Source: Gemmatimonadota bacterium
GTDB taxonomy: Bacteria > Gemmatimonadota > Gemmatimonadetes > Gemmatimonadales > GWC2-71-9
Direction: 5' to 3'
Length of the DNA stretch: 64,000 bases
NCBI GenBank assembly: GCA_016713785.1
Contig: JADJOM010000002.1
Span: 132,404 to 196,403, forward strand
Part shown: one piece after another, positions 29,361-63,511 of the stretch
Layout of the letters: every line of letters begins with the position of its first letter
How positions within the stretch are numbered: position 1 is the first letter of the stretch
Program-made: the position numbers and the translations under genes
Notes under the pieces: generated by a model
What the model was told of the DNA's origin: nothing
Database searches by the model: none
What the model saw: only the letters and a program-made list of their open reading frames with translations

Positions 29361-30005
29361 CGGCGTCCGCCGGGGGGGGGGGCGGGAAGGCGATTCGGCG
29401 GTTCGTGATTCGTGGGGTGCGTGGGTCGCTCCCTAGGCACCTGCTCTGCCGCGGGCCAGTCGGCGGCGTTGGCACGAAGCGATGGGGGCATCCGGGGGGT
29501 CGGTCCCTGTGTATCACGGCGAGGGCTCCGACCTCCGCCCGAACCGGCGGCCTGTCGGCGTCTCCTGATAGTCCTACTTCGGGAGGTCCGCCACCGCTTG
29601 CCGGTCTGCGCTTCCTAGTGGTCCTACTTCGGGGAGGTCCGCCCTCAACCCTGATCCTCCGATCCTGAGCGGCCCTGAAACGGGGGAAGGGTCACGGTAG
29701 CCGCGAGGTGAGCCAGCGCCAACGCACAGAGGCCACCTGCCAGCCGCATGGAGTGGCCTGACATCCTTCCGGAAGCGGCCTGACATCTAGGGCACCTTGC
29801 CAACTACGGGCCTCGGGCCGCCTATCTGCGGATCCTGTAGCTCACCGGCCGTTGCCCTGCCGCATACGCATACGCATACGCATTCCATGGCAGCCGCCAT
29901 AGTGCGCGCATGCCGCAAGGGCGAGCGCCGTGGACGCCATGGTGCGGCCGGCCTCGACACCGCGACCGCGCGGGCATGGCCACTCCTGCGAGCTGGCATG
30001 CCGAG

Positions 30006-30407
30006 CTAGTAGTGCTCTACTCCATCCTGCCGGACGATCGCTCTCGTAGCTGGATCAAAGTAGAGCTGATACCGGAACATGCCACGGGAATCATAGATGT
30101 TGAGGTAGACCACATCCGTTTCCCTTAGCGCCTGCCCATCGAGGAAGAACAGCGTGAAGAGGTGCCGGGCTAGAGGCTCATCGATCTCATCTTCCCCCAC
30201 GCTGCGTGCGGACAGATACAGCTGATCATCGATGGCCACCTCGACACGCGATCCCCACTGCGCGCGGATTGCATCGAGGCGCATCTCATCTCCTGGTGCA
30301 GCACTGCTGCAGCCCGCCAGGACCAGCAACAAGTGGGCGCCACCCAGCCAGCTCCGCCCACGACTCACCCACTGGCTCCGCCTCATCCTCCGGTCTCCTC
30401 GTGACAA
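30006..30407 (-). CDS. lipoprotein, candidate immunity protein for orphan toxin 2
   Basis: The gene starts 30 nt downstream of the toxin stop. Lipobox LLLVLAGCSS. Lower GC than the background. Confidence 0.6.
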   Translation of the reverse strand: MSRGDRRMRRSQWVSRGRSWLGGAHLLLVLAGCSSAAPGDEMRLDAIRAQWGSRVEVAIDDQLYLSARSVGEDEIDEPLARHLFTLFFLDGQALRETDVVYLNIYDSRGMFRYQLYFDPATRAIVRQDGVEHY

Positions 30408-30437
30408 CGCAAGTGTGCGTGGTGCGACACCACGATC

Positions 30438-31433
30438 CTACCTGCATGACCTTCCTGTGATGGCCGCAGCGATCCCCCGTGCGTTGTTGAACACATCCCT
30501 GGCACTGAACGCCCAGGCAGTCTTCCCGGTGAGGCGGCTGCCCAAGTTCGGCAGGTCATGCCTCACTAAACCTTCCAGTTCATTCAGCAGCCCGAACTGC
30601 CACGCGAGGAATGGCCCGAACTGTCGGGTCGCCTCGTACGAGCCATGGAAATGCCTCTCGGACGACAGTGCCTCTCCCCGAAAGAGGTGGTGCATCACTG
30701 GCCTCATGCTATGAAACCACTCGTAGGTGTCAACGGGGTTGAACACAGCTACTACTAAAGGGGTGGGCGCAAGAGGTTCGGCGGGGCACCCAGTGTGCGA
30801 CCGACTCTTTGTCGGAGAACCTCCAGCGGGGCTCCTACGCCGACTCCGTGTCGTGTCCCCTGGCGCGAGTGGGTTCCAGTATGGTTGCTCGGGAGCGGAG
30901 AACGTTCCCTCTTTGTCTTCTTCCGATCGACAAGTCCAATTCTCGTCGTAGCCCTCCAGATGGACGTCGGTGCAACGAGGCTCCAGCCCGGAGGGGTCGG
31001 TCAGGTTCACCGGATCATTCCCTGCATACGCGTACACATTCAGGCCGCCCGCGATCCCGATCGGGTCCTCGCTGATCCACCGCCCCAGGGCGGGGTCGTA
31101 GTAGCGCGCCCGCATGTAGTAGAGCCCGCTCTCGCCGTCATACTCCCGCCCGGCAAAGTGATAGCGGACCACGATGCCGGTATCGGCCACGGCGTCGCCC
31201 CAGGGCGCCTCGGCAAATTCCTTGACCTTGGCCCCGGTGCGGAACCGGGCCAGGCCGCGCACGGTGCCGTTGATCGGGTCGAGGATCGCCGCAAGGGTGT
31301 CGACGACCGGGGTCGTGGCCCGGAGGGCCAGGAGCCGGTCCACCCCGCCGGGGTACCAGTTGAATTGGTGGTGGTGCAAGCCAAGGTCAAGGCCGCTGCG
31401 GAGTACTCGACTGTGCCCAGCAGGGGTGGTCAA
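30438..31433 (-). CDS. orphan RHS core-end plus C-terminal toxin cassette 2 (has its own ATG)
   Basis: YPGGVDRLLALR...YAYAGNDPVNLTDPSGLEP repeats the RHS core end. A unique ~190-aa tail follows, with ERHFHGSYEATRQFG...DVFNNARG. Confidence 0.8.
   Translation of the reverse strand: MTTPAGHSRVLRSGLDLGLHHHQFNWYPGGVDRLLALRATTPVVDTLAAILDPINGTVRGLARFRTGAKVKEFAEAPWGDAVADTGIVVRYHFAGREYDGESGLYYMRARYYDPALGRWISEDPIGIAGGLNVYAYAGNDPVNLTDPSGLEPRCTDVHLEGYDENWTCRSEEDKEGTFSAPEQPYWNPLAPGDTTRSRRRSPAGGSPTKSRSHTGCPAEPLAPTPLVVAVFNPVDTYEWFHSMRPVMHHLFRGEALSSERHFHGSYEATRQFGPFLAWQFGLLNELEGLVRHDLPNLGSRLTGKTAWAFSARDVFNNARGIAAAITGRSCR
31010..31358 (-). repeat. ~350-bp direct repeat, copy 3 (RHS core end)
   Basis: Near-identical at nucleotide level to 32978-33320 and 34542-34888. 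Confidence 0.9.
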
Positions 31434-31436
31434 CAG

Positions 31437-31667
31437 CTAGCGGACGTCCGGGGGCGCAGACTTGACCGACTCCGGCTCCCCGCGCGATCGATGCTCGAAC
31501 CACATGGCCAAGCCGAAGCACGCCAGAAAGTAGATGACCATTCCCACCGCGGCTCGAGTCCAGGCCAACCGCTGCCAGCCAGCGATCATTCCCAGCGCCC
31601 CGGAGAGCAGGCCTACGAGCAGTGCGGGCCACCTTGCTCTGACCGTCGCAGCGATCAGTGTTCTCAC
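31437..31667 (-). CDS. small two-helix membrane protein (possible stray immunity gene)
   Basis: GTG start, 76 aa with two hydrophobic helices. Acceptable GC3 bias. Weak RBS. Confidence 0.4.
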   Translation of the reverse strand: MRTLIAATVRARWPALLVGLLSGALGMIAGWQRLAWTRAAVGMVIYFLACFGLAMWFEHRSRGEPESVKSAPPDVR

Positions 31668-31794
31668 TGCGAGGGTCCTTCAGGGCGCGAGTGCGTGTCG
31701 CTGAGATTGGTGGAATGCCGCCACCAGGTTGGAAAACAGGCAACCCGTCTACGACAGCCCTGGCCGACCTGAACCCGTGAGGCGCAGTGATGCC

Positions 31795-32397
31795 CTATTC
31801 CAGGATGACCACCAAGGTGGCCACGGCGAACTCCGATGGGTCGCTTGGCCGCCGCCCACTGATGCTTATCCCGGTTGGGAGTACATAGTTCAGGAGCCAT
31901 TCATGCAGTGCGGGTACAGGCACCACGCGGGCCCATTCTCTGGCGTTGAGGAGTACGGCCTGCTCAGAATGTTCCCGCGCGGGTTCAGCAATGAGGGCCC
32001 CGATCGTTGAGCCTGGGCCGAGGAGGGCCCTCGCCTCCCCAAGGTGGCGAGCGATGGCACCTTGCTCTGTAAGTGACTCACACTCTAGGGTTAGAAGAAG
32101 TGCGTGACCTGTTGCAGTGCAACGCACTGGCTTAGCGGCACTCACGAGGGCATGCAGTGCTGCGCCGAAGCCAGGTGCTACGCTGTTGTTGACCCGAATC
32201 TCTGCCGCCTGCGTGTCAATGGAGCTACCTGCCGCAAGTGCGGCCGCTACCAAAGCCACCTCAGCGGCAAGTTCGCGATGACTGTTCTGGTCCGCTCCGG
32301 GCGAGAATGGCATGCTAGGCGTCCCGGCAGGAATGAGCGCGATCCAGAAAAGGAAGTTGGAAATCTGGAGCATGGGCGCTGTGGCGTTTCTGGACAT
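31795..32397 (-). CDS. candidate immunity protein for orphan toxin 1
   Basis: ATG 32397 lies 8 nt after the toxin stop (32406). 200 aa, mainly helical, with no signal peptide. GC falls to roughly 50-65% by eye. Confidence 0.55.
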   Translation of the reverse strand: MSRNATAPMLQISNFLFWIALIPAGTPSMPFSPGADQNSHRELAAEVALVAAALAAGSSIDTQAAEIRVNNSVAPGFGAALHALVSAAKPVRCTATGHALLLTLECESLTEQGAIARHLGEARALLGPGSTIGALIAEPAREHSEQAVLLNAREWARVVPVPALHEWLLNYVLPTGISISGRRPSDPSEFAVATLVVILE

Positions 32398-32405
32398 TCT
32401 GGCCC

Positions 32406-33330
32406 TCAGGGTGTAGGGGCGTATCCCTCGAAGACGGCATGCCCACTTGCACAATGGACAAAAGCCTGTGCCCTGAGGCTCATGAGCAGCGCCTGAGGAC
32501 CGACCGGACCAAAGTACGTTCCTCGATATACCCCAACCCCGCCGAGCACCTTCACTCGAAGAGGACCGATCTTGAAATAGTCGTTGATCGCAACCCGCTG
32601 GACCGAGAACACCCCCCGCTGGGAAGGCGGGGGGACATCGATCACTGCCACATACTCGATGCTTCCAACCGCACATCCCTTCCAGGCATTCTTCCGCCCG
32701 GTCGCAATAACGATCGGTGGTGCGCCGCCCGCGCCCGTGCTGCGATATGGGTTCCACGGTGGATTGTCCTTCCACGCATCCGGGATTTCCCCGCCACATC
32801 GCAGTCGGTACCAAGGATCTGTGGACAGGATCCAACCGCTGTCGCAAGCCCCCTTGTTCTGGCCGGTATCCCCGAACACCTCAAGAGTGTCCATGGGCAA
32901 CGGGCAGCCACCCGGTGTGCCCGGAGGCTTTCTCAGGTCGCACCGTGGATCCAGTCCTGAAGGGTCCCTCCCATTGACCGGATCATTCCCCGCATACGCG
33001 TACACATTGAGCCCGCCCGCGATCCCGATCGGGTCCTCGCTGATCCACCGCCCCAGGGCGGGTTCGTAGTACCGCGCCCGCATGTAGTAGAGCCCGCTCT
33101 CGCTGTCGTACTCCCGCCCGGCGAAGTGATACCGGACCACGAGGCCGGTATCGGCCACCGCGTCGCCCCAGGGCGCCTCGGCAAATTCCTTGACCTTGGC
33201 CCCGGTGCGGAACCGGGCCAGGCCGCGCACGGTGCCGTTGATCGGGTCGAGGATCGCCGCCAGGGTGTCGACGACCGGGGTGGTGGCCCGGAGGGCCAGG
33301 AGCCGGTCCACGCCGCCGGGATGACGGGCG
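32406..33330 (-). CDS. orphan RHS core-end plus C-terminal toxin cassette 1 (no credible own start)
   Basis: HPGGVDRLLALR...NDPVNGRDPSGLDP followed by a unique ~190-aa tail. The track ORF extension up to 33743 runs antisense-frame through the immunity gene and is not credible. Confidence 0.75.
32978..33320 (-). repeat. ~350-bp direct repeat, copy 2 (RHS core end)
   Basis: See copies at 31010 and 34542. Confidence 0.9.
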
Positions 33331-33445
33331 CATTCGGGGCGGCGCAGGCCAAGCTCAAGGCCGCTGCGGGATGTTCGTGCGGCTGGGGGAATGGTCCTGA
33401 GGCGGGCGGCGCTGCCTGCGACGGCTCCTATCAGCGGCTTGCTAG

Positions 33446-33916
33446 TCACGGTTCCGGGCGATACTGCTCCAGAAACTCCCGCGACAGGCGCTGGTACGCT
33501 GGGTAGAGCGCCAACGCCATAAAGGATCCCGTGACGATGGCACAGAACGCTGCCGCGAGCAACTGGGCCTTCACGGGCTCTTCCGGATACAACAACACGC
33601 TCAAGACCACGGCAAGCGGGCTGGCAATGGCGACGCCTACCGGCACAAGGCGGCGGCGCGATAATGTGTGCGGATCCAGGAAGCCGACCACCGCCCCGGT
33701 GAATCCCGAGAAGGCGTAGTACAGCAGCATCGCCGCCCACCATGTGAGCCCGAGGCGCCGGAGATTCTCGCCTCCCGTGAACACGGCGAGTGCGGCGACG
33801 TAGACGACGACGATGCTGGCATACCGGAGGCTCTTCCCCACGAAGAACCGCACTCGGGGCCGAGTCAGGTCCTTCGCTGCCTCCCGAGCTAGTTCAACAG
33901 GGGTTTGATGATGCAT
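33446..33916 (-). CDS. four-helix membrane protein, candidate immunity for the main RHS toxin
   Basis: ATG 33916 overlaps the RHS 3' end by 28 nt. 156 aa with four hydrophobic helices. Confidence 0.65.
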   Translation of the reverse strand: MHHQTPVELAREAAKDLTRPRVRFFVGKSLRYASIVVVYVAALAVFTGGENLRRLGLTWWAAMLLYYAFSGFTGAVVGFLDPHTLSRRRLVPVGVAIASPLAVVLSVLLYPEEPVKAQLLAAAFCAIVTGSFMALALYPAYQRLSREFLEQYRPEP

Positions 33917-36900
33917 TCCATCCCCGTCTGCAAGGACGATACAGCGGTCCCTCCCCAGGGAACCCAACTTGCCGCCGCCCCTCCAACCGCCCAGAGGAAA
34001 TCGCTTGTCGACTGATCGGCCGACAACGCAGCTGTTGCCGCCCCACGTGCCCTCCAAATCCCAGCTCGGAGTGCGCGCTCCGCCGCAGCCGCCCTGCCCG
34101 CTCGCGCCCCTGCAAATGTCGACTTGCCGAACAGCCTCCAGTCGGCATGTGCCATTGCCCCGGCGAACTCGGTCTGGCTGCGTGCCCAGCTACCCAGCAC
34201 CTTTGCACGTTCGAGCCACCTGGCCTGGGTGAAGTCCAATGTGCCATTGATGACCAAGTTTGAGAATGCCGCGGCGCATCTCTGCCCCTGTGTCGGCTCG
34301 CCAGGACCCTCGCTTTCCTCCCCACCACCCGGGAGGTTCCGCCAGCGGTCGGGAATCTGGCCGCCAGAGCGCAGACGGACCCACTCGTCGGTGGACGAGG
34401 TCCAGCCGCTGTTGCATGGCTCCCCATTCGTGCCGTACCACGTCGGTATCCACTCCGGCTCATCATGCCTCTCCAGCGGTGGCAGGCACACCACGCCTGG
34501 ATCGCAGTCCGGATCCAGCCCAGAAGGATCCCGCCCATTGACCGGATCATTCCCCGCGTACGCGTAGACGTTCAGCCCGCCCGCGATCCCGATCGGGTCC
34601 TCGCTGATCCACCGCCCCAGGGCGGGGTCGTAGTACCGCGCCCGCATGTAGTAGAGCCCGGTCTCGCTGTCGTACTCCCGCCCCGCGAAGCGGTACCGCA
34701 CCACGATCCCCGTGTCGGCAACCGCGTCGCCCCAGGGCGCCTCGGTGAATTCCTTGACCTTGGCCCCGGTGCGGAACCGGGCCAGGCCGCGCACGGTGCC
34801 GTTGATCGGGTCGAGGATCGCCGCCAGGGTGTCGACTACCGGGGTGGTGGCCCGGAGGGCCAGGAGCCGGTCCACGCCCCCCGGATACCAAGCGTATTCC
34901 CGCAGCACGGTCCCCGCGGCGTTGAGGTCGAAGATGACCTGGTCGCCCTCGTATACGTAGTACTCGTCCGCGGCGGCCATCTGCTTCCGCACCCGGCGCC
35001 CGAGGGCATCATAGAACATGCTGTCCACGAGGGCGCCTGTCGAGCCGTTCCGGATGCCCCGGAGCCGGCCAAGAGCATCCCAGGAGTACTTGTACCCGGA
35101 GCCCGTCCCGCCCGGGCAGGCTCCCACCAGCCGGCAGACGATGCTCCCGATCGCATCGTAGGAGAGGTTGGTGGTGCCGAACGCGGCCAGCCGGTTCCCC
35201 GCCCCGTAGGTCGTCGTGGTACCAAGCTGGCCGCGGTTGCCGGTCGAATCGTAGGTCCAGGCGGAGTCGGTCGTGCCATTGATCACGTTCTGGCACTGGC
35301 TCCCGGTGGAGTCGCAGGCGTTGGTAAGCCGGCCCAGCCGGTCATAGCGGAATAGCCGCCGGGTGAAGGCGCCCCCCTTGGGCGACGTGCGGGTCTTGTT
35401 GCGCCCCACGGAGTCGTAGGTCATGATCGGCAATTCGAGCGCGGCAAGGTTGGTCCCGCCGGTGAAGGTCTGGCTGGTGATTCGGTGGTTGGCATCGAAC
35501 CCCTGGAGCAGGCGCCAGGCATTGGCGGTGCCGCGATTGAACACCAGCGTGTCCGCGACCCAGTCGGCCGTGGTCTTGAACGTCAGGCAGCGCTTGGGAT
35601 TGGCGAAGACGCAGAGGGAATCCCGGAGGCCGTTGCCCGTGGTGTACGCGAACTGGAGCAGGGAAGAGTCGGCCGCAGGGGTACTCGGTCGAAGAACGCG
35701 CCTCGTGACCCGGTCATAGGTGTCGTAGCTCAGGCTGCCGCTGTAAGTGCGGCCGTTCATGGTCTGTCGCCATGCGTCGAGGCGCCCCCGGGTATCGAGG
35801 TGGAAGCTGTCGCGGGCTACGCTGTTGTAGGCCACGTTCCACCGGCCCGCGAGGGTGTCGTACAGGAAGTAGTCGGTCGGGAAGCCCGGTCCCGCGCGCG
35901 ACAGCAGCCGACCAACCTTGTCGTAGCTGAGGTCGATCACGTCACCCCGGCGGGTCCGGAACTTCCGAAGGTTGCCGCCAAGGTCGTACTTGAGGGTGTC
36001 GGCCTTGGTGGTGTCCGTGGCATCGTAGCGGGCCACGAGGGCCCCGAGGGCGTTGTAGCCGAACTTGTAGACCACCGGCGCCGCCGCCCCGCCCGGCCGG
36101 GGTGTCTCCACCCGGATCAGCGCCAGGGTCGCCGGATCGTAGGTATTGGTGACCCGATACCCCGGCGCCGCCCAGGTTGTGGTCAGGACCTGGTTCATGA
36201 CGCCGTAGGCGGTGCGCGACGTCGCCGCGAGTGGCGTGATCGAACTGTCGGGCCGTCCAACCGAGTCGAGCGTGACGCGGGTTTCGATGCCTGAGGGATC
36301 CCTGACCTTGACCAGGTTGCCCCAGGAGGCGTGATAGGTGTAGCGGGTCTTGTGATTGAGGGGATCGACGACGGCGGTGTCCCGGCCGAGCGGGTCGGCG
36401 ATGTGCCGCTCCACGAGCTGCCCGGTGGTGGTGTCCGGCCACGCCCCGGTCACGCCCACGTAGATGTCCTTGAGCGCCCCCTTCGGCCCACCCGCCTGTC
36501 CGGTGCCGTAGTAGTGGAAGTCGGTCCGCACCCGGTCGCCCTCGATCCAGGTGAGGTCGCTGGTCAGGGTATCGAGGTAGTGATAGTAGGTGTTCCGGCC
36601 GCCCGGACCGTCGCCGGCATAGGTCAGCTGCCCATGCCCGTTGTAGGTGAACACGGCGTAGGCCCCATTGGCCTCATCGACCCGGGTGACCCGGCCGTCA
36701 CCATCCCGGGTGATCAGGGAGCGGACCCCGAACGGATCGACCACGACCGTCGGAGTGCCGTACGCGTCCTGGCTGTAGCGGACGATGGCACCCAGCGGGT
36801 CGGTCACCGATGACTTGAGCGAGGTGTCCGCCTTCACCCCGGCCTTGGGTGCGTTCAGCGCATTGCCCGGCGTCGTAGGCTGCCAGACCGTGCGCTCGGC

Positions 36901-38469
36901 GGGCTGAAAGGTCACCCGGGGCCGGCCGGTCGAGCCATCGAACAGGGTGACGCTCGGCGCTCGAAGGCTGTCCAGGCGATTGAGGCCGTCGTAGTACAAC
37001 TCACTCACGTTGCCCCCGCGATCGGTCACGCTTGCGAGCAGGCTATTGGCCCCGTACGCCAGGCTTTCCCCGTAACCATCCGGATCCTGGATCTGGGTGA
37101 TCTTGCCGCCGACGGTGGTGTACGTCACGGTCCGGAGGGCACTCGAGCCGTACTGGACTTCCACGTGATGGAGTTTGCCTGCCGTGGCGGAGCAACTCGC
37201 ATTGTAGCACAGCCGCAGCACGCGGCTGGTGGGGTCGGTGATGGTGCTCAGCAGCGAGTCGTAGGGCGCCGCCAGGTAGGCGAAGAGCGTCGCGTTGCCG
37301 AAGCGATCCGACGCCCTGGTCATGAATCCGTTGGCGTTGAACTCCACCGACGATCCGTCGAGGTAGGTGCGGGTGTACTTGCCCGACTGGTACGCCAGCC
37401 GCACGCCCGGCGCACCGGCGGGCCGGGCGTAACCCGCGGCCACGCTGTCGTAGAACGCGATCGAGCCGTCACCCTCGGTGATCACGACGTCACCCGTGGC
37501 ACTCCCCCGCTTGTAGAGCCGTTGATACCCCGCCAGGTCGAAGCCGGCCCCGAACGCGCTTCGGCTCTGGGCAGCGATGAGCACCTGGGTAGATACCGTA
37601 TCTCCCAGGGTCACATTGCCGGGATAGTACGCCATGATCGACAGTTCCAGGGGGAAAGCCCCGGTCGAGTCGAGACTGTTCGTCGCGGCGTCGAATGCAG
37701 CGGCGATGCGGGTCTGGCCCGAGGCATGGGCCGCGAAGTACGCGATGGTGGCGCCGTTGAGCAGCGTGAACCAGCTTCCCACCCCGCTGCGCCGGACCTG
37801 GATCGAATAGGCGGTGGGAAGGGTGGCGCCAGCGGACAGGGTCAGGTCAATCGGAATGACGGGCGTGGGCTTGTGCGTCTGGCTGTTGTAGGCCAGGGTC
37901 AGCGCCCGCGGGGCACCGAGGGAGAAGTACGCGGGGGTGGCGTGCGCGTACACGGCATCGAAGCAGCTCGCCACGCACTTCGCCACATCGCGGTAAGTCG
38001 CGTTGTGCGGCGTCAGCGCGATGACCGGAGGCGCCGGGCCCGTCGAGAGCACCGTGTACCATCCGTCGTCGCTGGCCGTCCCGGTGGCGCTCAGGGTCAG
38101 GGTGCCGCTGCCCACCGCGCCGGTGCTGTAGGTGGCCGTGACGGTGATCTCCTCGAGATCATCGAAGGAGTAGGAGGGAATGCTCAGGCCGGTGCAGGTC
38201 AAGGGCCCGGTCGTTGCGCAGGAAAAGGTGACTGCCCTGGAGCCCGGAGCGGTGTTGGCCACGGTAAAGGCAAGCGTCTGGCCGCTGCTCCCCGAGGGGG
38301 CAGAGGCGCTGCCGTTGTCCGGCGTCACCACGATGGCTCCGCCACCACCGCCCCCGCCCGCGAGCGGCGCCTCGATCTGGGCGCGGAGTGGGGCGGCGCT
38401 GGCGCCGACGAGGACCAGGGCGGCCGCGAGGGTCCAACAGGAGAACGCGACGTTCGCGGGACGATGCAC
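33889..38469 (-). CDS. RHS/YD-repeat polymorphic toxin with Sec signal peptide
   Basis: Many YD repeats. RHS core end is ...YAYAGNDPVNGRDPSGLDP, followed by a ~200-aa unique tail. Preferred start GTG 38469 has GGAG 8 nt upstream and gives MHRPANVAFSCWTLAAALVLVGASAAPLRAQ. The longest ORF starts at GTG 38556. Confidence 0.9.
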   Translation of the reverse strand: MHRPANVAFSCWTLAAALVLVGASAAPLRAQIEAPLAGGGGGGGAIVVTPDNGSASAPSGSSGQTLAFTVANTAPGSRAVTFSCATTGPLTCTGLSIPSYSFDDLEEITVTATYSTGAVGSGTLTLSATGTASDDGWYTVLSTGPAPPVIALTPHNATYRDVAKCVASCFDAVYAHATPAYFSLGAPRALTLAYNSQTHKPTPVIPIDLTLSAGATLPTAYSIQVRRSGVGSWFTLLNGATIAYFAAHASGQTRIAAAFDAATNSLDSTGAFPLELSIMAYYPGNVTLGDTVSTQVLIAAQSRSAFGAGFDLAGYQRLYKRGSATGDVVITEGDGSIAFYDSVAAGYARPAGAPGVRLAYQSGKYTRTYLDGSSVEFNANGFMTRASDRFGNATLFAYLAAPYDSLLSTITDPTSRVLRLCYNASCSATAGKLHHVEVQYGSSALRTVTYTTVGGKITQIQDPDGYGESLAYGANSLLASVTDRGGNVSELYYDGLNRLDSLRAPSVTLFDGSTGRPRVTFQPAERTVWQPTTPGNALNAPKAGVKADTSLKSSVTDPLGAIVRYSQDAYGTPTVVVDPFGVRSLITRDGDGRVTRVDEANGAYAVFTYNGHGQLTYAGDGPGGRNTYYHYLDTLTSDLTWIEGDRVRTDFHYYGTGQAGGPKGALKDIYVGVTGAWPDTTTGQLVERHIADPLGRDTAVVDPLNHKTRYTYHASWGNLVKVRDPSGIETRVTLDSVGRPDSSITPLAATSRTAYGVMNQVLTTTWAAPGYRVTNTYDPATLALIRVETPRPGGAAAPVVYKFGYNALGALVARYDATDTTKADTLKYDLGGNLRKFRTRRGDVIDLSYDKVGRLLSRAGPGFPTDYFLYDTLAGRWNVAYNSVARDSFHLDTRGRLDAWRQTMNGRTYSGSLSYDTYDRVTRRVLRPSTPAADSSLLQFAYTTGNGLRDSLCVFANPKRCLTFKTTADWVADTLVFNRGTANAWRLLQGFDANHRITSQTFTGGTNLAALELPIMTYDSVGRNKTRTSPKGGAFTRRLFRYDRLGRLTNACDSTGSQCQNVINGTTDSAWTYDSTGNRGQLGTTTTYGAGNRLAAFGTTNLSYDAIGSIVCRLVGACPGGTGSGYKYSWDALGRLRGIRNGSTGALVDSMFYDALGRRVRKQMAAADEYYVYEGDQVIFDLNAAGTVLREYAWYPGGVDRLLALRATTPVVDTLAAILDPINGTVRGLARFRTGAKVKEFTEAPWGDAVADTGIVVRYRFAGREYDSETGLYYMRARYYDPALGRWISEDPIGIAGGLNVYAYAGNDPVNGRDPSGLDPDCDPGVVCLPPLERHDEPEWIPTWYGTNGEPCNSGWTSSTDEWVRLRSGGQIPDRWRNLPGGGEESEGPGEPTQGQRCAAAFSNLVINGTLDFTQARWLERAKVLGSWARSQTEFAGAMAHADWRLFGKSTFAGARAGRAAAAERALRAGIWRARGAATAALSADQSTSDFLWAVGGAAASWVPWGGTAVSSLQTGMECIIKPLLN
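34542..34888 (-). repeat. ~350-bp direct repeat, copy 1 (inside the main RHS gene)
   Basis: See copies at 31010 and 32978. Confidence 0.9.
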
Positions 38470-38505
38470 CGGGAAGCTCCGGAGTGGGGATGCCTCCCTG
38501 ACAAG

Positions 38506-38520
38506 ACAAGCAACGTGCCA
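38506..38520 (-). promoter_or_regulatory. sigma-54 -24/-12-like element upstream of the RHS gene
   Basis: Minus strand reads TGGCACgttgcTTGTc, with GG-N10-GT (consensus TGGCAC-N5-TTGC). A second candidate cGGCGGcgcgaTTGCc lies at 38574-38559. Confidence 0.4.
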
Positions 38521-38575
38521 CCGTCGTGCGGCCCCAAGTCGTTTCCGTGGCGGCACTTGGCAATCGCGCCGCCGG

Positions 38576-38630
38576 TTTGTCGCAGCGACAGCGGCCCGCC
38601 GTGCGACAAACGGTGCGACACCGTGCGACT
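38576..38630. promoter_or_regulatory. cluster of TGTCGCA/TGCGACA heptamers (enhancer-like sites)
   Basis: TTTGTCGCA-N17-TGCGACAAA inverted pair. Palindrome TGTCGC-A-GCGACA. Three direct GTGCGAC(A/T) copies at 38601, 38613 and 38623. Confidence 0.35.
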
Positions 38631-39645
38631 AGTTCAGTCCTGTACCACCCGCGGGGCTCACCGGCGGCTGGATGCCCAGGCGCTTGAGGCGGCGGTACAA
38701 TGTGGCCCGGTGCACCCCGAGCAGCACCGCGACCCGGTCCACGTTCCAATCCTGCTCCTCGCAACAGGCCACCAGTTCCGCCCGCTGGTACTGCAGCCCG
38801 GGATCCTCGGGGCAACGCATGCGGTCCTGGCGGGCCCCCTCATCCGCCATATCGAGCGCTTCGCACAACGTGGCCGGCGTGAGGGGGCCCACCGGCTGCA
38901 GGGTGGCGGCCCGGGCCACCACATGGCGAAGCTCCCGGACATTCCCGGGCCAGGGGTAGCGCTCGAGCACGGTCCGGGTGCCAGGCTCCAGCACGGCGCC
39001 AAGCCGGCGCGCAAAGTGCTCGGCCAGCGGCCACACATCCTCGGGCCGCTCCCGTAGCGCCTGCAGCCGGATCACCACCCCGCCCAGCCGGTGCACGAGG
39101 TCAGCCCGGATGGGCAGGCCACCGGAGGCGCCCTCCAGGTCCTGGACCGCGGCGAGCAGCCGCACCGACACCCGGTGCACGGCGGTCTCCCCGACGCGCG
39201 AGAACTGGCCGGTCTCCGCCACGCGCAGCAGGGCCCGCTGGCCGGCGATCGGCAGGCTGGCGAGTTCGTCGAGAAACAGGGTCCCGCGATCGGCGGCCTC
39301 GAAGTACCCAGGGACGGTGTCGACCGCGCTCGTGAAGGCGCCGCGCCGATGGCCGAACAGCTCGCGGATCACCATGTCGGCCGGCAGCGCCCCACAATTG
39401 ACCTCGACCATCCGCCCGTCCCGGGCACTCCAGGCGTGAATCGCCTGCGCCAGCACCTCCTTGCCGGTGCCGGTGGGACCGACGAGCAGAATCGGGAGGC
39501 TGGTGCCCGCGAAGGCCCGTGCCCGCTCCACCGCCCGGCGCATGGAGGGCGACACGGCGATGATAGGTGAGTCCTCGGGAACGGAAGGGCGGAGGGCCGG
39601 CGCCCTGCCTTCCGTCGGTCCCCCGGGCTTTCCGACGACGGTCAT
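38629..39645 (-). CDS. sigma-54-dependent transcriptional activator (AAA+ plus Fis-type HTH) without a sensory domain
   Basis: Walker A GPTGTGKE, GAFTSA loop, Walker [17 protein letters not shown] and a C-terminal HTH. Only about 35 aa precede the AAA+ core. ATG 39645. Confidence 0.85.
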   Translation of the reverse strand: MTVVGKPGGPTEGRAPALRPSVPEDSPIIAVSPSMRRAVERARAFAGTSLPILLVGPTGTGKEVLAQAIHAWSARDGRMVEVNCGALPADMVIRELFGHRRGAFTSAVDTVPGYFEAADRGTLFLDELASLPIAGQRALLRVAETGQFSRVGETAVHRVSVRLLAAVQDLEGASGGLPIRADLVHRLGGVVIRLQALRERPEDVWPLAEHFARRLGAVLEPGTRTVLERYPWPGNVRELRHVVARAATLQPVGPLTPATLCEALDMADEGARQDRMRCPEDPGLQYQRAELVACCEEQDWNVDRVAVLLGVHRATLYRRLKRLGIQPPVSPAGGTGLN

Positions 39646-39931
39646 GGCGCGCCTACCGCCGGCAGAGTGAGCGCCATCAGGCGGCTTGCTCCTGCGTTCC
39701 CGGAGTCGAGGAGGGATGGACGGGGGCGTGCGGCGGGGCGGAACGACGGATGGGCGGACGGCGGGAGGGGCGGGCAAAGAGACATCAGGAGGACGGACCA
39801 CCAACGCAGGCAGAGGCGCACCGGGGCTCCGGATTCGGGATGCCCATTCCTTATGTCAGGAGATGTGCCGCGCGCGTCAAACCACGGAGTTGTTGTGGCG
39901 GAATGACTTGGGCGCCGACCCGGGCCGGGGC

Positions 39932-39974
39932 AACTGTCTCAGTGAGACAGTTCACCGCCCAGATGAGACAGTTC
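39932..39974. promoter_or_regulatory. operator-like palindrome plus a phased third half-site
   Basis: AACTGTCTCA-G-TGAGACAGTT (39932-39952). TGAGACAGTTC is repeated exactly 21 bp later (39964-39974). Confidence 0.35.
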
Positions 39975-40001
39975 GGGCGTCCGGCCGCCGAGCCGCCTAT
40001 C

Positions 40002-41195
40002 CTACGCCGTCTTTCCCTCACCCTCCCCGCGGAACACCAGTGCAAAGATGATGAGGATCACGGCCGCGCCCACGGCGGGCCGGAGCCAGATGGCGTGCCA
40101 GTCGTGGCCCGTTCCCGCCGAGTTGACGAACTGCTGCACCACCAGCCCCGAGGCGAAGCTGCCGATCAGGTAGCCCACGCCCTGGGTAATGAAGGTGAGG
40201 AACCCCTGCGCCGCGGCCCGGACCTTGAGCCCCGCCTGCTGGTCCACGTAGATCTGCCCGGTGACGAAGAAGAAGTCGTAGCAGACCCCGTGCAGCAGGA
40301 TGCCGAGGTACAGCATCCACGCCCCGCCGCCGGTGTCGCCGTTGGCGAACAGCAGGTAGCGCGCGCCCCACGCCGCCATGCCCACCAGCAGGATGACCTT
40401 GGTGCCGAACCGCGCCAGCACCACCGGCAGCAGCACCATGAACAGGATCTCCGACACCTGGCCCAGCGTCATCTTGCTGGCCGGCGCCACCATGCCGATC
40501 TCGTTCAGGAAGAGGTTGGTGAAGGCGTAGTAGAACTGCAGCGGGATGCACAGCAGGAAGCTCCCCAGCACGAACGCCGCGAACGACCGGTTCTTCATGA
40601 GCGCCAGGGCGTCGAGCCCGAGCACGTCGCGCACGCCGAGGGGCTTGCCGGCGGCGTGCGGCGGGGTGTCCGGCAGCGCCAGCGAGAACAGCCCCAGCAA
40701 CACCGACGCGCCGGCCGCCAGCTGCATGGGCACCGCGCTGGCCTCGAGCCCCAGCTGCCCCACCACCTGCCCCGCCACGATCCACCCGATGGTGCCGAGC
40801 ACCCGCACCAGGGGGAACTCCTTGGCCGGGTCCTGCATGTTGTCGAAGGCGAGGCTGTTGGTGAGCGCCAGCGTCGGCGCGTAGCACAGCGCGTAGCCGA
40901 TCAAGAGCGGGTAGAACCGCCCGAAGCTCGGCTCCTGCGAGGCCCAGAAGATGATCCCCGCGCCCGCCAGGTGCAGGATGGCCAGGATCTTCTGGGTGGC
41001 GAAGAAGCGGTCGGCGATCATCCCCACGAAGAACGGGGCGATGATCGCCCCGATGGCCATGGTGCCGTACGCCGCGCCGATCTGCGGCCCGTCGAAGTTG
41101 AGGGTCTGGCCCAGGTAGGTGCCCAGCGTGACGAACCACGCCCCCCAGATGAAGTACTGGAGGAACATCATGAGGGAAAGCTTGGCTCGGATCAT
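40002..41195 (-). CDS. MFS transporter, NupG/XapB nucleoside-permease-like family
   Basis: [36 protein letters not shown] closely parallels the E. coli NupG N-terminus. 12 helices. ATGA overlap with the upstream gene. Confidence 0.85.
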
Positions 41196-41902
41196 GGGAG
41201 CTCGCGGAGGCGGATGTGCCGGAACGCCACGCGGTCGCCGTGGTCCTGCAGCGCGATGTGGCCCCGCGCCGCCCGGCCGTAGCCGGGCCACTGGGCGAAC
41301 TTGCTCGCCGCCACCTTGGCGGTCCAGTCGGCGCTGCCCAGCTCGTAGCTCACCACCCGCTGGCCGTTCAACCAGTGCTCCACCTGGCTGCCGCGCACCA
41401 CGATCCGCGCGGTGTTCCACTCGCCCGCCGGCTTCACCACCCCCGCCGGCCCGGCGTAGAGGCCGTAGCAGGCGCCGGCGGCGGTGAGGCGGTTGAGGCC
41501 ATCGGCGTGGGCCGCGTCGTCGAGGATCTGCATCTCGGGCCCGGTGTGGTAGCTGTACTCCCCCTCCTCGGTGACCCGGTACATCACGCCGCTGTTGCCC
41601 CCGGGCGCCACCTGCCACTCGAGCTCCAGCTCGAAGCTGCCGTACTCCCCGACCGTGATGATGTCCCCGCCCTCGCCGGTGCGGGTGAGCGCGCCGTCGA
41701 CGACGGTCCACCCCGCGGGCACGGTGGCCTGGTGATAGCCGCGCCAGCCGGCGGTGCTCCGGCCATCGAACAGGCTGGTCCAGCCCCCGGCGCGCAGGGC
41801 AATGGAGGCCTCGCCACCCATGGCGGGGGTGCCGGCGCCGGCACAGGAGCAGAGGAGGAACAGCGGGACGACACACAACCAGGGTGCGCGCGGAAGGCGC
41901 AT
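41192..41902 (-). CDS. DUF1080 (3-keto-disaccharide hydrolase family) secreted protein
   Basis: Signal/lipobox LFLLCSC. Motifs [46 protein letters not shown]. Confidence 0.85.
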
Positions 41903-41930: not shown

Positions 41931-43832
<1,902 letters not shown>

Positions 43833-62104: not shown

Positions 62105-62109
62105 CCGGT

Positions 62110-62151
62110 CCCCCGGGGCCGGCCGGCGTGGGCGCCGGCCGGTTCCGGGGG
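62110..62151 (+). terminator. long GC hairpin after lipoprotein B
   Basis: 19-bp stem (two G-T wobbles) with a 4-nt loop. It starts 6 nt after the stop. No U-tract. Confidence 0.5.
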
Positions 62152-62197
62152 CCGCAGGAGAGAGCCGCTGCCCACAACGACCTGGACCCTCGCCGCG

Positions 62198-63511
62198 GTG
62201 CGGCTCTCCGACAGCTTCCGGACCACCCTCATCGACCTCGCGGCCGATGTGGGCGCGGCGCTGACCGAGTGGACGCCGGGCACCGGCGAGGCGCTGCCGG
62301 CGGGGAGCACCTGCCTCCTGGTGCTCGCGGGCGGGGCCGAGGGACCGGCCGCGGACCTGCTGCCCAGTCTCCCCGCGACGCTGCCCCGCTACGTGGTGGG
62401 GGCGGCGCCGGACCACCGGCTGGCGGCGGCGATGTTCCAGGGGGGCGCGCGGGACTATTTCGCCTTGCCCGAAGACCTGGGGCTGCTCCGCCGGACGCTG
62501 GAGCGGGAGCGGGGAGCGGCAACGGGCCGGGCCGACGCGGCGCAGTTCGCCGCCGGCGAACGCCGGCTCTCGGGGTTCGACGCGATCGTGGGCCGGAGCG
62601 CCACGCTCGCCCGGACGCTGGACCAGGCCCGGCGGGTGGCGCGGCACCGCGACGTGACGGTGCTGATCGGGGGCGAGACCGGCACGGGCAAGGAGCTGCT
62701 GGCCCGCGCCCTGCACTACGACAGCCCGCGGGCCGAGGCGCCGTTCGTCGAGATCAACTGCGCGGCGATCCCGGCCAACCTGCTCGAGAGTGAGCTGTTC
62801 GGGCACGAGAAGGGCGCCTTCACCGGCGCGGTGGGCGCCAAGCCGGGGCTGATGGAGCAGGCGCACGGCGGGACGGTCTTCCTCGACGAGATCGGGAACC
62901 TCCCGCTCGACCTGCAGCCCAAGCTGCTGCGGGCACTGGAGAGCCGGGAGATCCGGCGCGTGGGCGGGCAGCAGACCCGCAAGGTGGATGTGCGGGTGAT
63001 CGGCGCGAGCCACATCGACCTGGCGGCCGCCGTCGCCCGGGGGGAGTTCCGCGAGGACCTCTTCTACCGGCTCAACGTGGTGGCGCTGGTGCTGCCGCCG
63101 CTGCGCGACCGGGGCGAGGACGTCCTGGTGCTGGCGGAGGCGTTCGCGGCGCGGCTGGCCGCCCAGTACGGCCTGCCGGTGCCGGCCCTCGGTCCGGAGG
63201 CGCGCGAGGCGATCCGGGCCCACCCGTGGCCCGGCAACGTGCGCGAGTTGCGCAACGCCATCGAACGGGCGCTGGTGCTCTCGACCCCGGGCACCCTGGA
63301 GCTGGGCGAGCTCACGGCGCAGCGGGGCGCGGCGCCGGCACGGGACGGGGCGCTGCCCTTCCCCGCCACCCTGCGGCAGATCACCCAGGCGGCGGTACAG
63401 GGCATGCTGGAGCTGGTCAGTGGCAACAAGAGTGAGGCGGCGCGGCGGCTCGGGATCTCCCGCCCCCGCCTGCAGCGGATTCTCGATGGGCAGGGCGACG
63501 ACGACACCTAG
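62198..63511 (+). CDS. sigma-54-dependent Fis-family activator with degenerate receiver-like N-terminus
   Basis: [30 protein letters not shown] and a C-terminal HTH ([13 protein letters not shown]). GTG start. Confidence 0.9.

What the first reader, a model, noticed from the sequence alone, without database searches (positions are those of the whole stretch)
38469..38630. RHS gene appears to be under sigma-54 control; the promoter position argues for a shorter ORF starting at GTG 38469
The 160 nt upstream of the RHS coding region contain two -24/-12-like elements on the minus strand. They are TGGCACgttgcTTGTc (38520-38505, one mismatch in the -12 GC) and cGGCGGcgcgaTTGCc (38574-38559, exact GG-N10-GC). 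Just upstream lie five copies of the heptamer TGTCGCA/TGCGACA, arranged as inverted and direct repeats (38576-38630). A sigma-54 activator gene ends at 38629. Both promoters fall at or inside the longest ORF, which starts at GTG 38556 with no ribosome-binding site. GTG 38469 has GGAG 8 nt upstream and yields a textbook signal peptide. As far as I know, sigma-54 control of an Rhs toxin by an adjacent dedicated activator is not a described arrangement.
Basis: partly seen in the sequence, partly recalled or inferred. Interest (0 to 1): 0.65.

Follow-up and report, generated by a model that had tools for sequence, protein, structure and literature searches.

The report
Sigma-54 switch driving an Rhs toxin
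A Gemmatimonadota toxin gene (Rhs) very probably has its own sigma-54 promoter, switched on by the small activator gene just upstream; in relatives this pair sits at the end of a type II secretion operon, a pairing I did not find described in the papers I searched.

Summary
Sequence alone gives no significance to the two promoter-like motifs. Comparison with related Gemmatimonadota loci does.

- **Promoter:** TGGCACGttgcTTGT (38520-38506) lies at the same place in 15 promoters, 34-37 nt before the start codon. These sit ahead of Rhs genes that follow a homologous activator (46-93% identical). More distant copies carry the canonical GG-N10-GC.
- **Model test:** a profile built only from non-window copies hits the window twice: 38521-38464 (E 1e-10) and 39870-39819 (E 2.6e-7).
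- **Second candidate:** 38574-38559 is not conserved and is at chance level.
- **Enhancer:** the five GTCGCA heptamers are conserved in orthologues. Paralogous loci carry other short repeats at the same position.
- **Start codon:** GTG 38469 is the start. Six of 13 homologous loci have an in-frame stop 33-39 nt upstream of it.
- **Activator:** 338 aa, no sensory domain, GAFTSA loop.

Wider context: at all 11 family activators examined outside the window's lineage an Rhs gene follows the activator. Ten have the type II secretion secretin gene directly upstream; six of them show the rest of the cluster. The window's lineage lost that linkage recently. Its activator gene now sits behind a second copy of the promoter module.

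All of this is computational, and the -12 GT is non-canonical. I rate it a new variant of a known kind, interest 0.6.

The parts
38629..39645 (-). Sigma-54 activator (bacterial enhancer-binding protein, bEBP) gene, 338 aa. It has an AAA+ sigma-54 interaction domain (Walker A GPTGTGKE, Walker B DEL, loop GAFTSA), an AAA lid and a Fis-type HTH. Only about 27 residues precede the AAA+ domain, so there is no sensory or receiver domain.
   Evidence: Pfam, translation and motif check. The exact 338-aa protein is called on 14 public contigs. The nearest solved structures are NtrC1, NifA and PspF. It scores below the cut-off of every named NCBIfam equivalog.
38578..38630 (-). Probable enhancer (upstream activating sequence, UAS): five (T)GTCGCA heptamers. 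Three are direct repeats with starts spaced 10 and 12 nt apart; the other two form the palindrome TGTCGC-T-GCGACA. The array lies about 60-110 nt upstream of the -24 element, and the first heptamer overlaps the activator's stop codon.
   Evidence: All heptamers are unchanged in the 79-93% orthologous loci, while the bases between them vary. The same motif family occurs in L057, whose activator is 57% identical. Other repeat motifs occupy the same position in paralogous loci.
38535..38544 (-). IHF-like box AAACGACTTG, the reverse complement of CAAGTCGTTT, lying between the enhancer and the promoter.
   Evidence: A YAA-N4-TTG box sits 40-43 nt upstream of the -24 GG in 8 promoters. In the window's subclade it is inverted and sits 25 nt upstream. 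Reading it as an IHF site rests on remembered consensus only (WATCAANNNNTTR).
38505..38520 (-). Sigma-54-type promoter TGGCACG-ttgc-TTGT-c. The -24 GG is at 38519-38518 and the -12 position holds GT at 38507-38506 in place of GC.
   Evidence: It is the top hit in the window of a 17-nt position weight matrix built from non-window copies (19.6 bits). A profile HMM built from those copies scores it at E 1e-10. 15 homologous promoters are tabulated.
38470..38495 (-). Predicted leader. Transcription is inferred to start near 38494 (+/-2), within GGAGGC. The Shine-Dalgarno GGAG is at 38480-38477.
   Evidence: The start site is inferred from the usual 11-13 nt between the -12 element and +1; it is not mapped. 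The block GGCATCCC..CCGGAGC-N5-6-GTG is conserved. The 11 nt after the -12 element average 52% GC in a roughly 72% GC genome.
33889..38469 (-). Rhs polymorphic toxin gene, 1526 aa from GTG 38469. It has a signal-peptide-like N-terminus, a YD-repeat shell, the Rhs-associated core ending PVNGRDPSGL, and a C-terminal domain of about 200 aa with no Pfam or NCBIfam match.
   Evidence: Pfam RHS_repeat. NCBIfam Rhs_assc_core at residues 1245-1318 and YD_repeat_2x, both above cut-off. Start codon evidence. Residues 46-1320 are 69-70% identical to the Rhs genes of L057 and L061, which lie next to type II secretion genes.
38559..38574 (-). Rejected.
   Evidence: The pattern is at chance level: 1 hit against 1.3 expected. 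In the L001 and L068 allele the spacing becomes GG-N9-GC. The TTGC is absent in L033 and L055.
39819..39974 (-). Second copy of the same module, upstream of the activator gene. Its parts are: GAACTGTCTCA x2 plus the inverted TGAGACAGTT (39974-39932); CAAGTCATTC (39910-39901); cGGCACA-tctc-CTGA (39870-39856); GGCATCCCgaatCCGGAGC; and GTG 39821.
   Evidence: The non-window HMM scores it at E 2.6e-7, the only other significant hit in the window. Repeats are shown. BLAST matches it to Rhs promoter regions of L001, L055 and L061. L067 carries a GTCTCA-type enhancer ahead of its Rhs gene.
39642..39821 (-). A 59-codon ORF (VRLCLRWWSVLLMSL...) whose TGA overlaps the activator's ATG (ATGA). It is probably the remnant of an Rhs 5' end and may couple translation to the activator gene.
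   Evidence: Translation, weak frame-specific GC3 (0.77, 0.71, 0.68) and resemblance to Rhs N-termini such as VRVRLS and VIRLRS. No family match. The 93% relative L068 has the 3' end of the secretin gene here instead.
33446..33913 (-). Candidate immunity gene: a multi-pass membrane protein that begins at the Rhs stop codon.
   Evidence: Translation shows several hydrophobic segments. No family match. The role is inferred from position only.
30006..33330 (-). Two orphan Rhs C-terminal cassettes, each followed by a small ORF. The cassettes are in ORFs 32406-33743 and 30438-31433. Each restarts at ..YPGGVDRLLALRATTPVVDT.. and carries a different tip. The small ORFs lie within 31795-32405 and at 30006-30407; the latter has a lipoprotein signal.
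   Evidence: Translations. Rhs_assc_core is above cut-off in both cassettes. A repeated 62-nt segment matches the end of the Rhs core in L001.

Best explanation
The 160-nt spacer between the two genes is a complete sigma-54 control region for the Rhs toxin gene.

**Proposed mechanism.**
1. The activator encoded just upstream (338 aa; AAA+ domain plus Fis-type HTH; no sensory domain) binds the array of five GTCGCA heptamers at 38630-38578.
2. An IHF-like box at 38544-38535 may help bend the DNA.
3. The bound activator uses ATP hydrolysis to open the sigma-54 RNA polymerase complex at TGGCACG-N4-TTGT (38520-38506).
4. Transcription starts near 38494.
5. The 25-nt leader carries GGAG, and translation starts at GTG 38469.
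6. The product is a precursor with a Sec-type signal peptide.

**Wider context.** Because the activator has no sensor, its amount, or an unknown partner acting in trans, probably sets the output. In relatives the activator is the last gene of a type II secretion operon, so toxin transcription would follow production of the secretion machine. In the window's lineage that linkage is lost. The activator gene instead sits behind a second promoter module of the same type, which suggests self-activation or control by a paralogous activator.

**Shown here:** gene content, motifs, their conservation and their positions.
**Inferred:** binding, sigma-54 dependence, the transcription start, and secretion through the type II system.
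For: **Activator**
- Pfam domains. Walker A, Walker B and GAFTSA are intact.
- Among 120 family members the loop is GAFTGA in 73 and GAFTSA in 7.

**Conserved pairing**
- At all 11 family activators examined outside the window's lineage (46-93% identical), the gene is followed by an Rhs gene; in L056 the contig ends before that gene, inside the promoter module.
- In 10 of the 11 (all but L061) the secretin gene abuts or overlaps the activator gene; six of these show the rest of the type II secretion cluster.
- 46 control activator loci from other lineages (L007-L054 without L032 and L033) have neither an Rhs nor a secretin gene.

**Promoter**
- 15 positionally homologous elements, all GG-N10-G(T/A/C), lie 34-37 nt from the start codon.
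- The canonical GC is present in L062, L064, L065 and L066.
- An HMM built from non-window copies finds only 38521-38464 (E 1e-10) and 39870-39819 (E 2.6e-7) in 128 kb of searched sequence.
- Across all 63 loci held at that point, an HMM built from all ten copies then known (so the source copies match by construction) hit only ahead of Rhs genes or the window-lineage activator.
- The stretch after the -12 element is AT-enriched: 52% GC against about 72%.

**Enhancer**
- The heptamers are invariant in orthologues while the spacers vary.
- The repeat motif differs between paralogous loci. It is identical at both Rhs genes of L061 and of L064.

**Start codon**
-.

**Non-GC -12 elements**
- An in-vitro library for P. 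putida sigma-54 recovered both TTGCAT and TTGAAT as core -12 motifs (PMC11997794).

**No alternative promoter**
- No sigma-70-like promoter was found in 33500-40200.
Against: - There are no transcript, binding or genetic data at all.
- The window's -12 is GT, not the nearly invariant GC. 11 of the 15 promoters lack the C.
- Judged by sequence statistics within the window alone, the motif is not above chance.
- The rpoN gene of this organism was not seen. Its presence is inferred from the intact activators, including a second one at 62105-63511, and from the reported near-perfect co-occurrence of sigma-54 and its activators (PMC3162934).
- GAFTSA is a variant of the sigma-54 contact loop.
- No terminator separates the two genes, so read-through from the activator gene could contribute.
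Confidence: 0.75

Rival explanations
1. The Rhs gene is transcribed mainly by read-through from the activator gene, or from an unrecognised sigma-70 or ECF promoter. The conserved GGCACG..TG block would then serve another purpose, such as a repressor site or a leader element.
For: No terminator lies between the two genes. The -12 element is non-canonical in most copies. The leader downstream of the motif is also conserved, so part of the conservation could be at the RNA level.
Against: The GG-N10-G spacing is exact in 15 of 15 copies, and canonical GC appears in the distant ones. An activator gene is always adjacent and a repeat array is always upstream. Second Rhs genes that do not follow an activator gene (L060b, L061b, L064b) carry the same module, so read-through cannot explain them. 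No sigma-70-like promoter was found. No Rfam family matches, and support for a leader hairpin is weak.
Confidence: 0.12
2. The window's copy is a decayed or deregulated promoter. With T at -12, the sigma-54 holoenzyme would either bind poorly (silent toxin gene) or fire without tight dependence on the activator.
For: The -12 C is missing in the window and its close relatives. From my recollection of E. coli work on -12 mutants, not checked here, loss of the -12 consensus weakens the locked closed complex.
Against: The TG of the -12 element and everything else in the module are retained across loci whose activators are only 54-57% identical and that have the same GT or GA (L057, L060, L061, L067). 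That argues for selection on a working variant. TTGA-type -12 motifs supported transcription in vitro in P. putida (PMC11997794).
Confidence: 0.1
3. The upstream candidate cGGCGG-N5-TTGC (38574-38559) is the functional sigma-54 promoter, or a second one.
For: It has exact GG-N10-GC spacing in the window.
Against: The pattern occurs at chance frequency. Its -24 half is poor (GGCGG). The spacing or the TTGC is lost in L001, L068, L033 and L055. It abuts the enhancer, leaving no room for looping. The module HMM does not match it.
Confidence: 0.02

Closest known systems
VasH (Vibrio, Aeromonas) and Sfa2 (P. aeruginosa H2-T6SS): sigma-54 activators encoded inside a secretion-system cluster
   Same: The activator gene lies within the secretion-machine cluster. 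It works with RpoN to turn on effector and toxin loci, including loci elsewhere in the genome. Sfa2 with RpoN controls the H2-T6SS-linked vgrG toxin islands (PMC8855297).
   Different: Those systems are type VI, and their Rhs effectors lack Sec signals. Sfa2 has an N-terminal GAF domain; the activator here has no sensory domain. Here the cluster is type II secretion, the target is a Sec-signal Rhs gene immediately downstream, and the enhancer repeats differ from locus to locus.
PspF and HrpR/HrpS: activators without a regulatory domain
   Same: They consist only of an AAA+ domain and an HTH. By analogy, activity would be set by expression level or by a partner protein acting in trans. PspF is among the nearest solved structures (E 1e-44). 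HrpR/S also control a secretion system and its effectors; that point is from my own knowledge.
   Different: This protein is not a member of either family. It scores 192 bits against the NCBIfam PspF model, whose cut-off is 443. No PspA- or HrpV-like partner was identified. The loop is GAFTSA rather than GAFTGA.
Rhs toxins linked to type II secretion, proposed for Xanthomonas and Ralstonia (bioRxiv 10.1101/2025.05.08.652813)
   Same: Rhs families are genetically linked to type II secretion genes and predicted to leave the cell by that route rather than by type VI.
   Different: In that study the link is to gspG, in proteobacteria, and secretion is unconfirmed. The text never mentions sigma, RpoN, regulator or promoter. 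Here a whole gsp cluster, an activator and an Rhs gene form one co-oriented unit in Gemmatimonadota.
Classical sigma-54 promoters with enhancer and IHF site (glnAp2, nifH, Pu)
   Same: The layout is the same: an activator-site array about 80-140 nt upstream of the predicted transcription start, a bend site in between, GG at -24, TG at -13/-14, and a short leader.
   Different: The -12 position is T in the window, and C in only 4 of the 15 related promoters. The organism is from a phylum for which I know of no experimentally mapped sigma-54 promoter.

Membership tests
Sigma-54-dependent promoter | GG at -24 and GC at -12, separated by exactly 10 nt (TGGCAC-N5-TTGC) | tested here: inconclusive
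   GG and the spacing are met, and TGGCACG is a perfect -24 half. The -12 position is GT, not GC. Homologous promoters in L062, L064, L065 and L066 have GC.
Sigma-54-dependent promoter | Lies upstream of a gene, at a conserved position, with a cognate activator and an upstream enhancer | tested here: met
   It is intergenic, 36 nt from the -12 element to the start codon. The activator gene is adjacent and the heptamer array lies 60-110 nt upstream. The same layout holds in 15 promoters.
Sigma-54-dependent promoter | Transcription requires RpoN and ATP hydrolysis by an activator, with the start about 12 nt downstream of the -12 element | not testable with these tools
   No expression data are available. 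rpoN is not in the window.
Bacterial enhancer-binding protein (bEBP) | AAA+ sigma-54 interaction domain with Walker A, Walker B and the GAFTGA loop | tested here: met
   PF00158 at E 8e-47. GPTGTGKE, DEL and GAFTSA are present, with the F and T of the loop kept and G replaced by S. The same variant occurs in 7 of 120 relatives.
Bacterial enhancer-binding protein (bEBP) | C-terminal DNA-binding HTH | tested here: met
   PF02954 HTH_8 at E 1.5e-8, at residues 343-376 of the 391-codon ORF given to Pfam, i.e. about 290-323 of the 338-aa protein.
Activators lacking a regulatory domain (PspF, HrpR/S type) | No N-terminal receiver, GAF, PAS or V4R domain | tested here: met
   The AAA+ domain starts at about residue 28 of 338. 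No other Pfam domain is found.
PspF equivalog | Scores above the curated NCBIfam cut-off | tested here: not met
   TIGR02974 gives 192 bits against a cut-off of 443. No named equivalog is reached.
Rhs polymorphic toxin | YD/RHS repeats plus the Rhs-associated core ending in PxxxxDPxGL, followed by a variable C-terminal domain | tested here: met
   PF05593. TIGR03696 gives 99.8 bits against a cut-off of 32.5, and TIGR01643 is above cut-off. PVNGRDPSGL is followed by about 200 unmatched residues.
Rhs polymorphic toxin | Downstream immunity gene and orphan C-terminal cassettes; tips that vary between strains | tested here: met
   Two orphan cassettes carry Rhs_assc_core. In L001, which has a 100% identical activator, the whole Rhs island is replaced. 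Immunity function itself was not tested.
Type II secretion substrate | Sec or Tat signal peptide | tested here: inconclusive
   The N-terminus VHRPANVAFSCWTLAAALVLVGASAAPLRAQ has a charged start, a hydrophobic core of about 17 residues and an A-x-A-like end. Homologues show the same pattern. No signal-peptide predictor was run.
Type II secretion substrate | Secretion depends on a Gsp machine | not testable with these tools
   Only genetic linkage in relatives is available: a gspE-G-F-pseudopilins-K-M-secretin cluster next to the activator-Rhs pair. The window contains no type II secretion genes.

The most novel reading that the evidence does not exclude
Gemmatimonadota carry a type II secretion system whose main cargo is Sec-signal Rhs polymorphic toxins. 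Its last gene encodes a sensor-less sigma-54 activator. That activator reads a locus-specific repeat 'barcode' placed ahead of every Rhs gene belonging to that machine, including distant cassettes. In this reading the window shows an activator-Rhs pair that recently broke away from its operon. The pair was rewired behind another barcode (TGTCTCA), creating either a two-step activator cascade or a positive feedback loop for toxin expression.
Probability: 0.4. Interest if true: 0.75.

Novelty: new variant of a known kind. Interest (0 to 1): 0.6.

Why it matters
**Secretion route.** How Rhs toxins that lack type VI secretion signals are exported and controlled in two-membrane bacteria is largely unknown. 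A type II route has so far only been proposed from gene linkage in proteobacteria. This locus family offers a compact, testable unit of machine, activator and toxin in a poorly studied soil phylum.

**Promoter set.** It supplies 15 aligned promoters that show which -12 variants are tolerated outside the proteobacteria.

**Annotation.** The module predicts the correct start codon for these very long genes. It can also be used as a search model to find Rhs cassettes and assign them to their regulators in metagenomes.

**Enhancer specificity.** The locus-specific enhancer repeats are a natural set of matched activator-site pairs.

Tried and rejected
- **Second promoter candidate (38574-38559).** Rejected as chance and not conserved.
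- **Sequence statistics within the window.** They give no support for either promoter motif. I therefore did not rely on them.
- **Conserved leader hairpin (GGAGGC pairing with GCYTCC).** RNAalifold predicts no consensus structure. Pair counting gives 72.7% of cells paired, with 16 of 500 shuffles reaching that value, and sliding the partner by +1 still gives 63%. Not established.
- **Known RNA family in 38300-40100.** Only a sub-threshold PhotoRC-I match (16.8 bits against a gathering score of 45).
- **Weak terminator-like site at 38526-38511.** It is the promoter sequence itself, with a 5-bp stem. Not credible as a terminator.
- **Second-best matrix hit at 52145-52129.** It is the reverse complement of the start of a plus-strand lipoprotein gene, so it is a chance match.
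- **Matching HTH recognition helices to enhancer motifs.** The helix (R[AS]T[LV]YRRL) is nearly the same in activators whose loci carry different repeats, so nothing can be read from it.
- **Scan of genome contigs with the activator.** It found only generic activators at 32-45% identity in other phyla. These served as negative controls.
- **Type II secretion genes in the window.** None found.
- **The 59-codon ORF upstream of the activator gene.** No family match.
Full report
**1. What is in the sequence**

The window is about 72% GC. Names attached to close homologues place it in Gemmatimonadota.

On the minus strand a 338-aa protein is encoded at 39645-38629. Pfam finds a sigma-54 interaction domain (E 8e-47), an AAA lid and a Fis-type HTH. 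Only about 27 residues precede the AAA+ domain, so there is no sensory domain. Walker A (GPTGTGKE) and Walker B (DEL) are intact. The sigma-54 contact loop reads GAFTSA.

After 160 nt comes a 1526-aa Rhs protein, at 38469-33889. It matches RHS_repeat. It also matches the Rhs-associated core and YD repeats above the NCBIfam cut-offs.

These are two -24/-12-like strings, five GTCGCA-type heptamers (three exact and two with one mismatch), the activator's stop codon at 38629, the long ORF from GTG 38556, and GGAG 7 nt before GTG 38469.

**2. Is it more than chance?**

Within the window alone, the promoter strings are not.
- The canonical consensus with up to two mismatches occurs 15 times, against 22 expected.
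- The family-derived degenerate pattern occurs 3 times, against 3.8 expected.
- The second candidate's pattern occurs once, against 1.3 expected.
- Only the heptamer cluster stands out: three exact copies in 43 bp where 0.007 are expected.

The decision therefore rests on comparison with other loci.

**3. Comparative evidence**

*Same lineage.* The exact activator protein is found on 14 public contigs. In six of them the gene callers start the Rhs gene 160 nt after the activator's stop codon. That position is window 38469.

*Relatives.* A protein search found a family of 300-370-aa activators without sensory domains. Those with names are annotated as Gemmatimonadales or Gemmatimonadota. I examined the genomic context of 11 members outside the window's lineage, 46-93% identical to the window's activator:
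- L068 (93%), L055 and L056 (80%) and L033 (79%);
- L057 and L067 (57%), L061 (55%) and L060 (54%);
- L064 (50%), L062 (49%), L065 (48%) and L066 (46%).

The results were uniform.
- In every case the activator gene is followed by an Rhs or YD-shell gene on the same strand.
- In 10 of the 11 (all but L061) the secretin gene abuts or overlaps the activator gene.
- Six loci also show the rest of the type II secretion cluster: gspE, G, F, pseudopilins, K and M.
- 46 activator loci from other lineages, pulled in by the same searches, contain neither an Rhs nor a secretin gene.

**4. The promoter**

Ahead of every one of these Rhs genes lies GGCA(C/T)(G/A)-N4-NTG(T/A/C). It ends 34-37 nt before the start codon.
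- The -24 half is GGCACG in 13 of the 15 copies.
- The G of the -12 dinucleotide is invariant.
- The next base is C in four loci (L062, L064, L065, L066), T in seven copies and A in four.
- So the window's TTGT is a lineage variant of a promoter that is canonical GG-N10-GC in the more distant members.
- An in-vitro library study of P. putida sigma-54 recovered both TTGCAT and TTGAAT as core -12 motifs (PMC11997794). This makes G(T/A) variants plausible.

Two model tests agree.
- A profile HMM built only from the eight non-window copies finds two significant matches in the window. They are 38521-38464 (E 1e-10) and 39870-39819 (E 2.6e-7); every other match has E above 3.
- Across all 63 loci held at that point, an HMM built from all ten copies then known matches only ahead of Rhs genes or the window-lineage activator. 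The ten source copies match it by construction.

Other features fit a sigma-54 promoter.
- The 11 nt after the -12 element average 52% GC. That is consistent with a region that must melt.
- A box YAA-N4-TTG sits at a fixed 40-43 nt upstream of the GG in eight promoters. In the window's subclade it is inverted and lies 25 nt upstream, at window 38544-38535. It resembles the core of the IHF consensus. That comparison rests on memory and is a lead only.

I reject it.

**5. The enhancer**

In the 79-93% orthologues all five heptamers are unchanged, while the bases between them vary. L057 (57%) uses the same motif family. There the array overlaps the 3' end of the activator's coding sequence.

Other loci carry different short repeats at the same position:
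- GTCTCA/TGAGAC in L062, L067 and the second Rhs gene of L060;
- GGGATT in L061;
- GAGAT/GAGAC in L064;
- GGGAC in L065;
- AGTCCG/CGGACT in L066.

L061 and L064 each have two Rhs genes. Both copies carry the same repeats and the same promoter. This is what a dedicated activator with locus-specific sites would produce. I could not read the specificity from the HTH sequences.

**6. The start codon**

GTG 38469 is supported by four lines of evidence.
- The public gene calls use it.
- The arrangement CCGGAGC-N5-6-start is conserved.
- Signal-peptide-like N-termini begin at the homologous codon in all loci.
- In 6 of 13 loci an in-frame stop lies 33-39 nt upstream with no alternative start. One of them is L001, from the same lineage.

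The long ORF from GTG 38556 would have to be translated through the promoter.

**7. Most likely mechanism**

*Inferred steps.*
- The activator oligomerises on the heptamer array.
- It contacts sigma-54 RNA polymerase bound at 38520-38506, possibly across a bend.
- It drives open-complex formation.
- Transcription starts near 38494.
- The 25-nt leader carries the Shine-Dalgarno sequence, and translation begins at 38469.
- The product is a Sec-signal Rhs precursor.

*How activity may be set.* With no sensory domain, the activator's activity is probably set by its abundance or by an unknown partner, as for PspF or HrpR/S. In relatives the activator gene overlaps the end of the secretin gene. The toxin promoter would therefore fire only once the secretion operon is expressed.

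*Status of the evidence.* Gene content, motifs and their conservation are shown. Binding, RpoN dependence, the start site and the export route are inferred.

*Presence of sigma-54.* rpoN itself was not observed. Its presence is inferred from the intact activators, including a second one at 62105-63511. It is also inferred from the reported near-perfect co-occurrence of sigma-54 and its activators (PMC3162934).

**8. What is special about the window's copy**

The 93% relative L068 still has the 3' end of the secretin gene directly upstream of the activator gene. Homology with the window begins only about 30 nt before the ATG. The window has no type II secretion genes. A nucleoside symporter gene lies upstream instead.

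Between the symporter gene and the activator gene sits the second HMM hit.
- Its parts are two GAACTGTCTCA repeats plus the inverted copy, CAAGTCATTC, GGCACA-N4-CTGA, GGCATCCC..CCGGAGC, and GTG 39821.
- A 59-codon ORF follows. It looks like a decayed Rhs signal peptide, and its TGA overlaps the activator's ATG.
- The GTCTCA-type enhancer is the one found ahead of the Rhs gene of L067. The L067 activator is 57% identical overall to the window's activator; I counted about 80% over the first 60 residues by eye.

So a recent rearrangement placed the activator behind an Rhs-type sigma-54 promoter. Whether the activator binds TGTCTCA itself (the motif differs by one base from TGTCGCA) or a paralogue does so is open.

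**9. The Rhs locus is otherwise typical**

The core ends with PVNGRDPSGL, followed by an unmatched tip of about 200 aa. A multi-pass membrane ORF starts at the stop codon and is a candidate immunity gene. Two orphan cassettes follow, each containing the Rhs-associated core and each with a small downstream ORF.

Compared with L001, whose activator is identical, the window is 97% identical from 48000 down to 38348. The whole island from 38348 to 29592 is then replaced, and similarity resumes at 95.6%. The L001 Rhs protein is only 34% identical over its first 340 residues and is followed by an Imm21 gene. By contrast, the window's Rhs is 69-70% identical to the Rhs genes of L057 and L061, which lie next to type II secretion genes.

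**10. Comparison with what is known**

The logic matches activators encoded inside secretion-system clusters that switch on toxin loci with RpoN. Examples are Sfa2 for the P. aeruginosa H2-T6SS and its vgrG islands (PMC8855297) and VasH in Vibrio and Aeromonas (cited in PMC12396204). Those are type VI systems. Sfa2 has a GAF domain.

Rhs families linked to type II secretion genes have been proposed for Xanthomonas and Ralstonia in a 2025 preprint. That text contains none of the words sigma, RpoN, regulator or promoter.

Literature searches combining Rhs, sigma-54, type II secretion and Gemmatimonadota found no description of this arrangement.

The activator is a bona fide enhancer-binding protein but not a member of any named equivalog.

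**11. Verdict**

- One of the two promoter candidates is wrong.
- The interpretation, sigma-54 control by the adjacent activator and a start at GTG 38469, is well supported by phylogenetic footprinting but untested experimentally.
- I rate it a new variant of a known kind, with interest 0.6.
- Most of that interest comes from the conserved unit of type II secretion cluster, activator and Rhs gene, and from the rewired copy in this window.

Noticed in passing
L060, L061, L062, L064, L065, L066 (whole loci); L033, L055-L059, L063, L067, L068 (partial): In relatives the activator-Rhs pair is the end of a co-oriented type II secretion cluster (gspE, G, F, pseudopilins, K, M, secretin). The activator gene usually overlaps the secretin's stop codon. 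This suggests a type II system dedicated to Sec-signal Rhs toxins.
   Followed up: partly
window 39819-39974 and 39642-39821 (minus strand): A second copy of the sigma-54 promoter and leader module, with TGTCTCA repeats, sits upstream of the activator gene. A 59-codon remnant ORF follows it and ends in an ATGA overlap with the activator's start. In the 93% relative L068 this position holds the 3' end of the secretin gene.
   Followed up: yes
window 29592-38348 compared with L001 11298-18269: The entire Rhs island is replaced between two assemblies that share a 100% identical activator and 96-97% identical flanks. The breakpoint lies about 120 nt inside the Rhs gene, just after the signal peptide. 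The L001 version is a 1701-aa Rhs followed by Imm21 and transposase genes.
   Followed up: partly
window 30006-33913 (minus strand): Candidate multi-pass membrane immunity gene (33913-33446). Two orphan Rhs C-terminal cassettes (in ORFs 32406-33743 and 30438-31433) have different tips. Small downstream ORFs include a lipoprotein at 30006-30407. The region is 63-64% GC, against about 72% elsewhere.
   Followed up: partly
window 38470-38497 and homologous leaders: A possible 5'-terminal hairpin pairs GGAGGC with GCYTCC just before the start codon, with some compensatory changes (GAAGGGC/GCCCUUC, CGACAG/CUGUCG). Statistical support is weak.
   Followed up: yes
window 38535-38544; 40-43 nt upstream of the -24 GG in L057, L060, L061, L064, L065, L067: A conserved box YAAGTCGTTG (YAA-N4-TTG) lies between enhancer and promoter and is inverted in the window's subclade. 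In the window it is also one arm of the inverted repeat CCAAGT-N15-ACTTGG. It may be an IHF site or the site of another dimeric regulator.
   Followed up: partly
window 62105-63511 (+): A second sigma-54 activator gene with a longer N-terminal region (the AAA+ domain starts at residue 161). This indicates that the organism uses sigma-54 more widely.
   Followed up: no
window 41931-43832, 41192-41902, 40002-41195 (minus strand): A hybrid histidine kinase, a 3-keto-disaccharide hydrolase-like gene and a nucleoside:H+ symporter lie directly upstream of the activator module. In L001 the kinase is split into two calls (310 and 191 aa). No link to Rhs regulation was examined.
   Followed up: no
L061 7890-7970; L057 1960-2069: In some loci the enhancer repeats lie inside the 3' coding end of the activator gene. 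The same DNA therefore encodes the activator's C-terminal tail and its probable binding sites.
   Followed up: no
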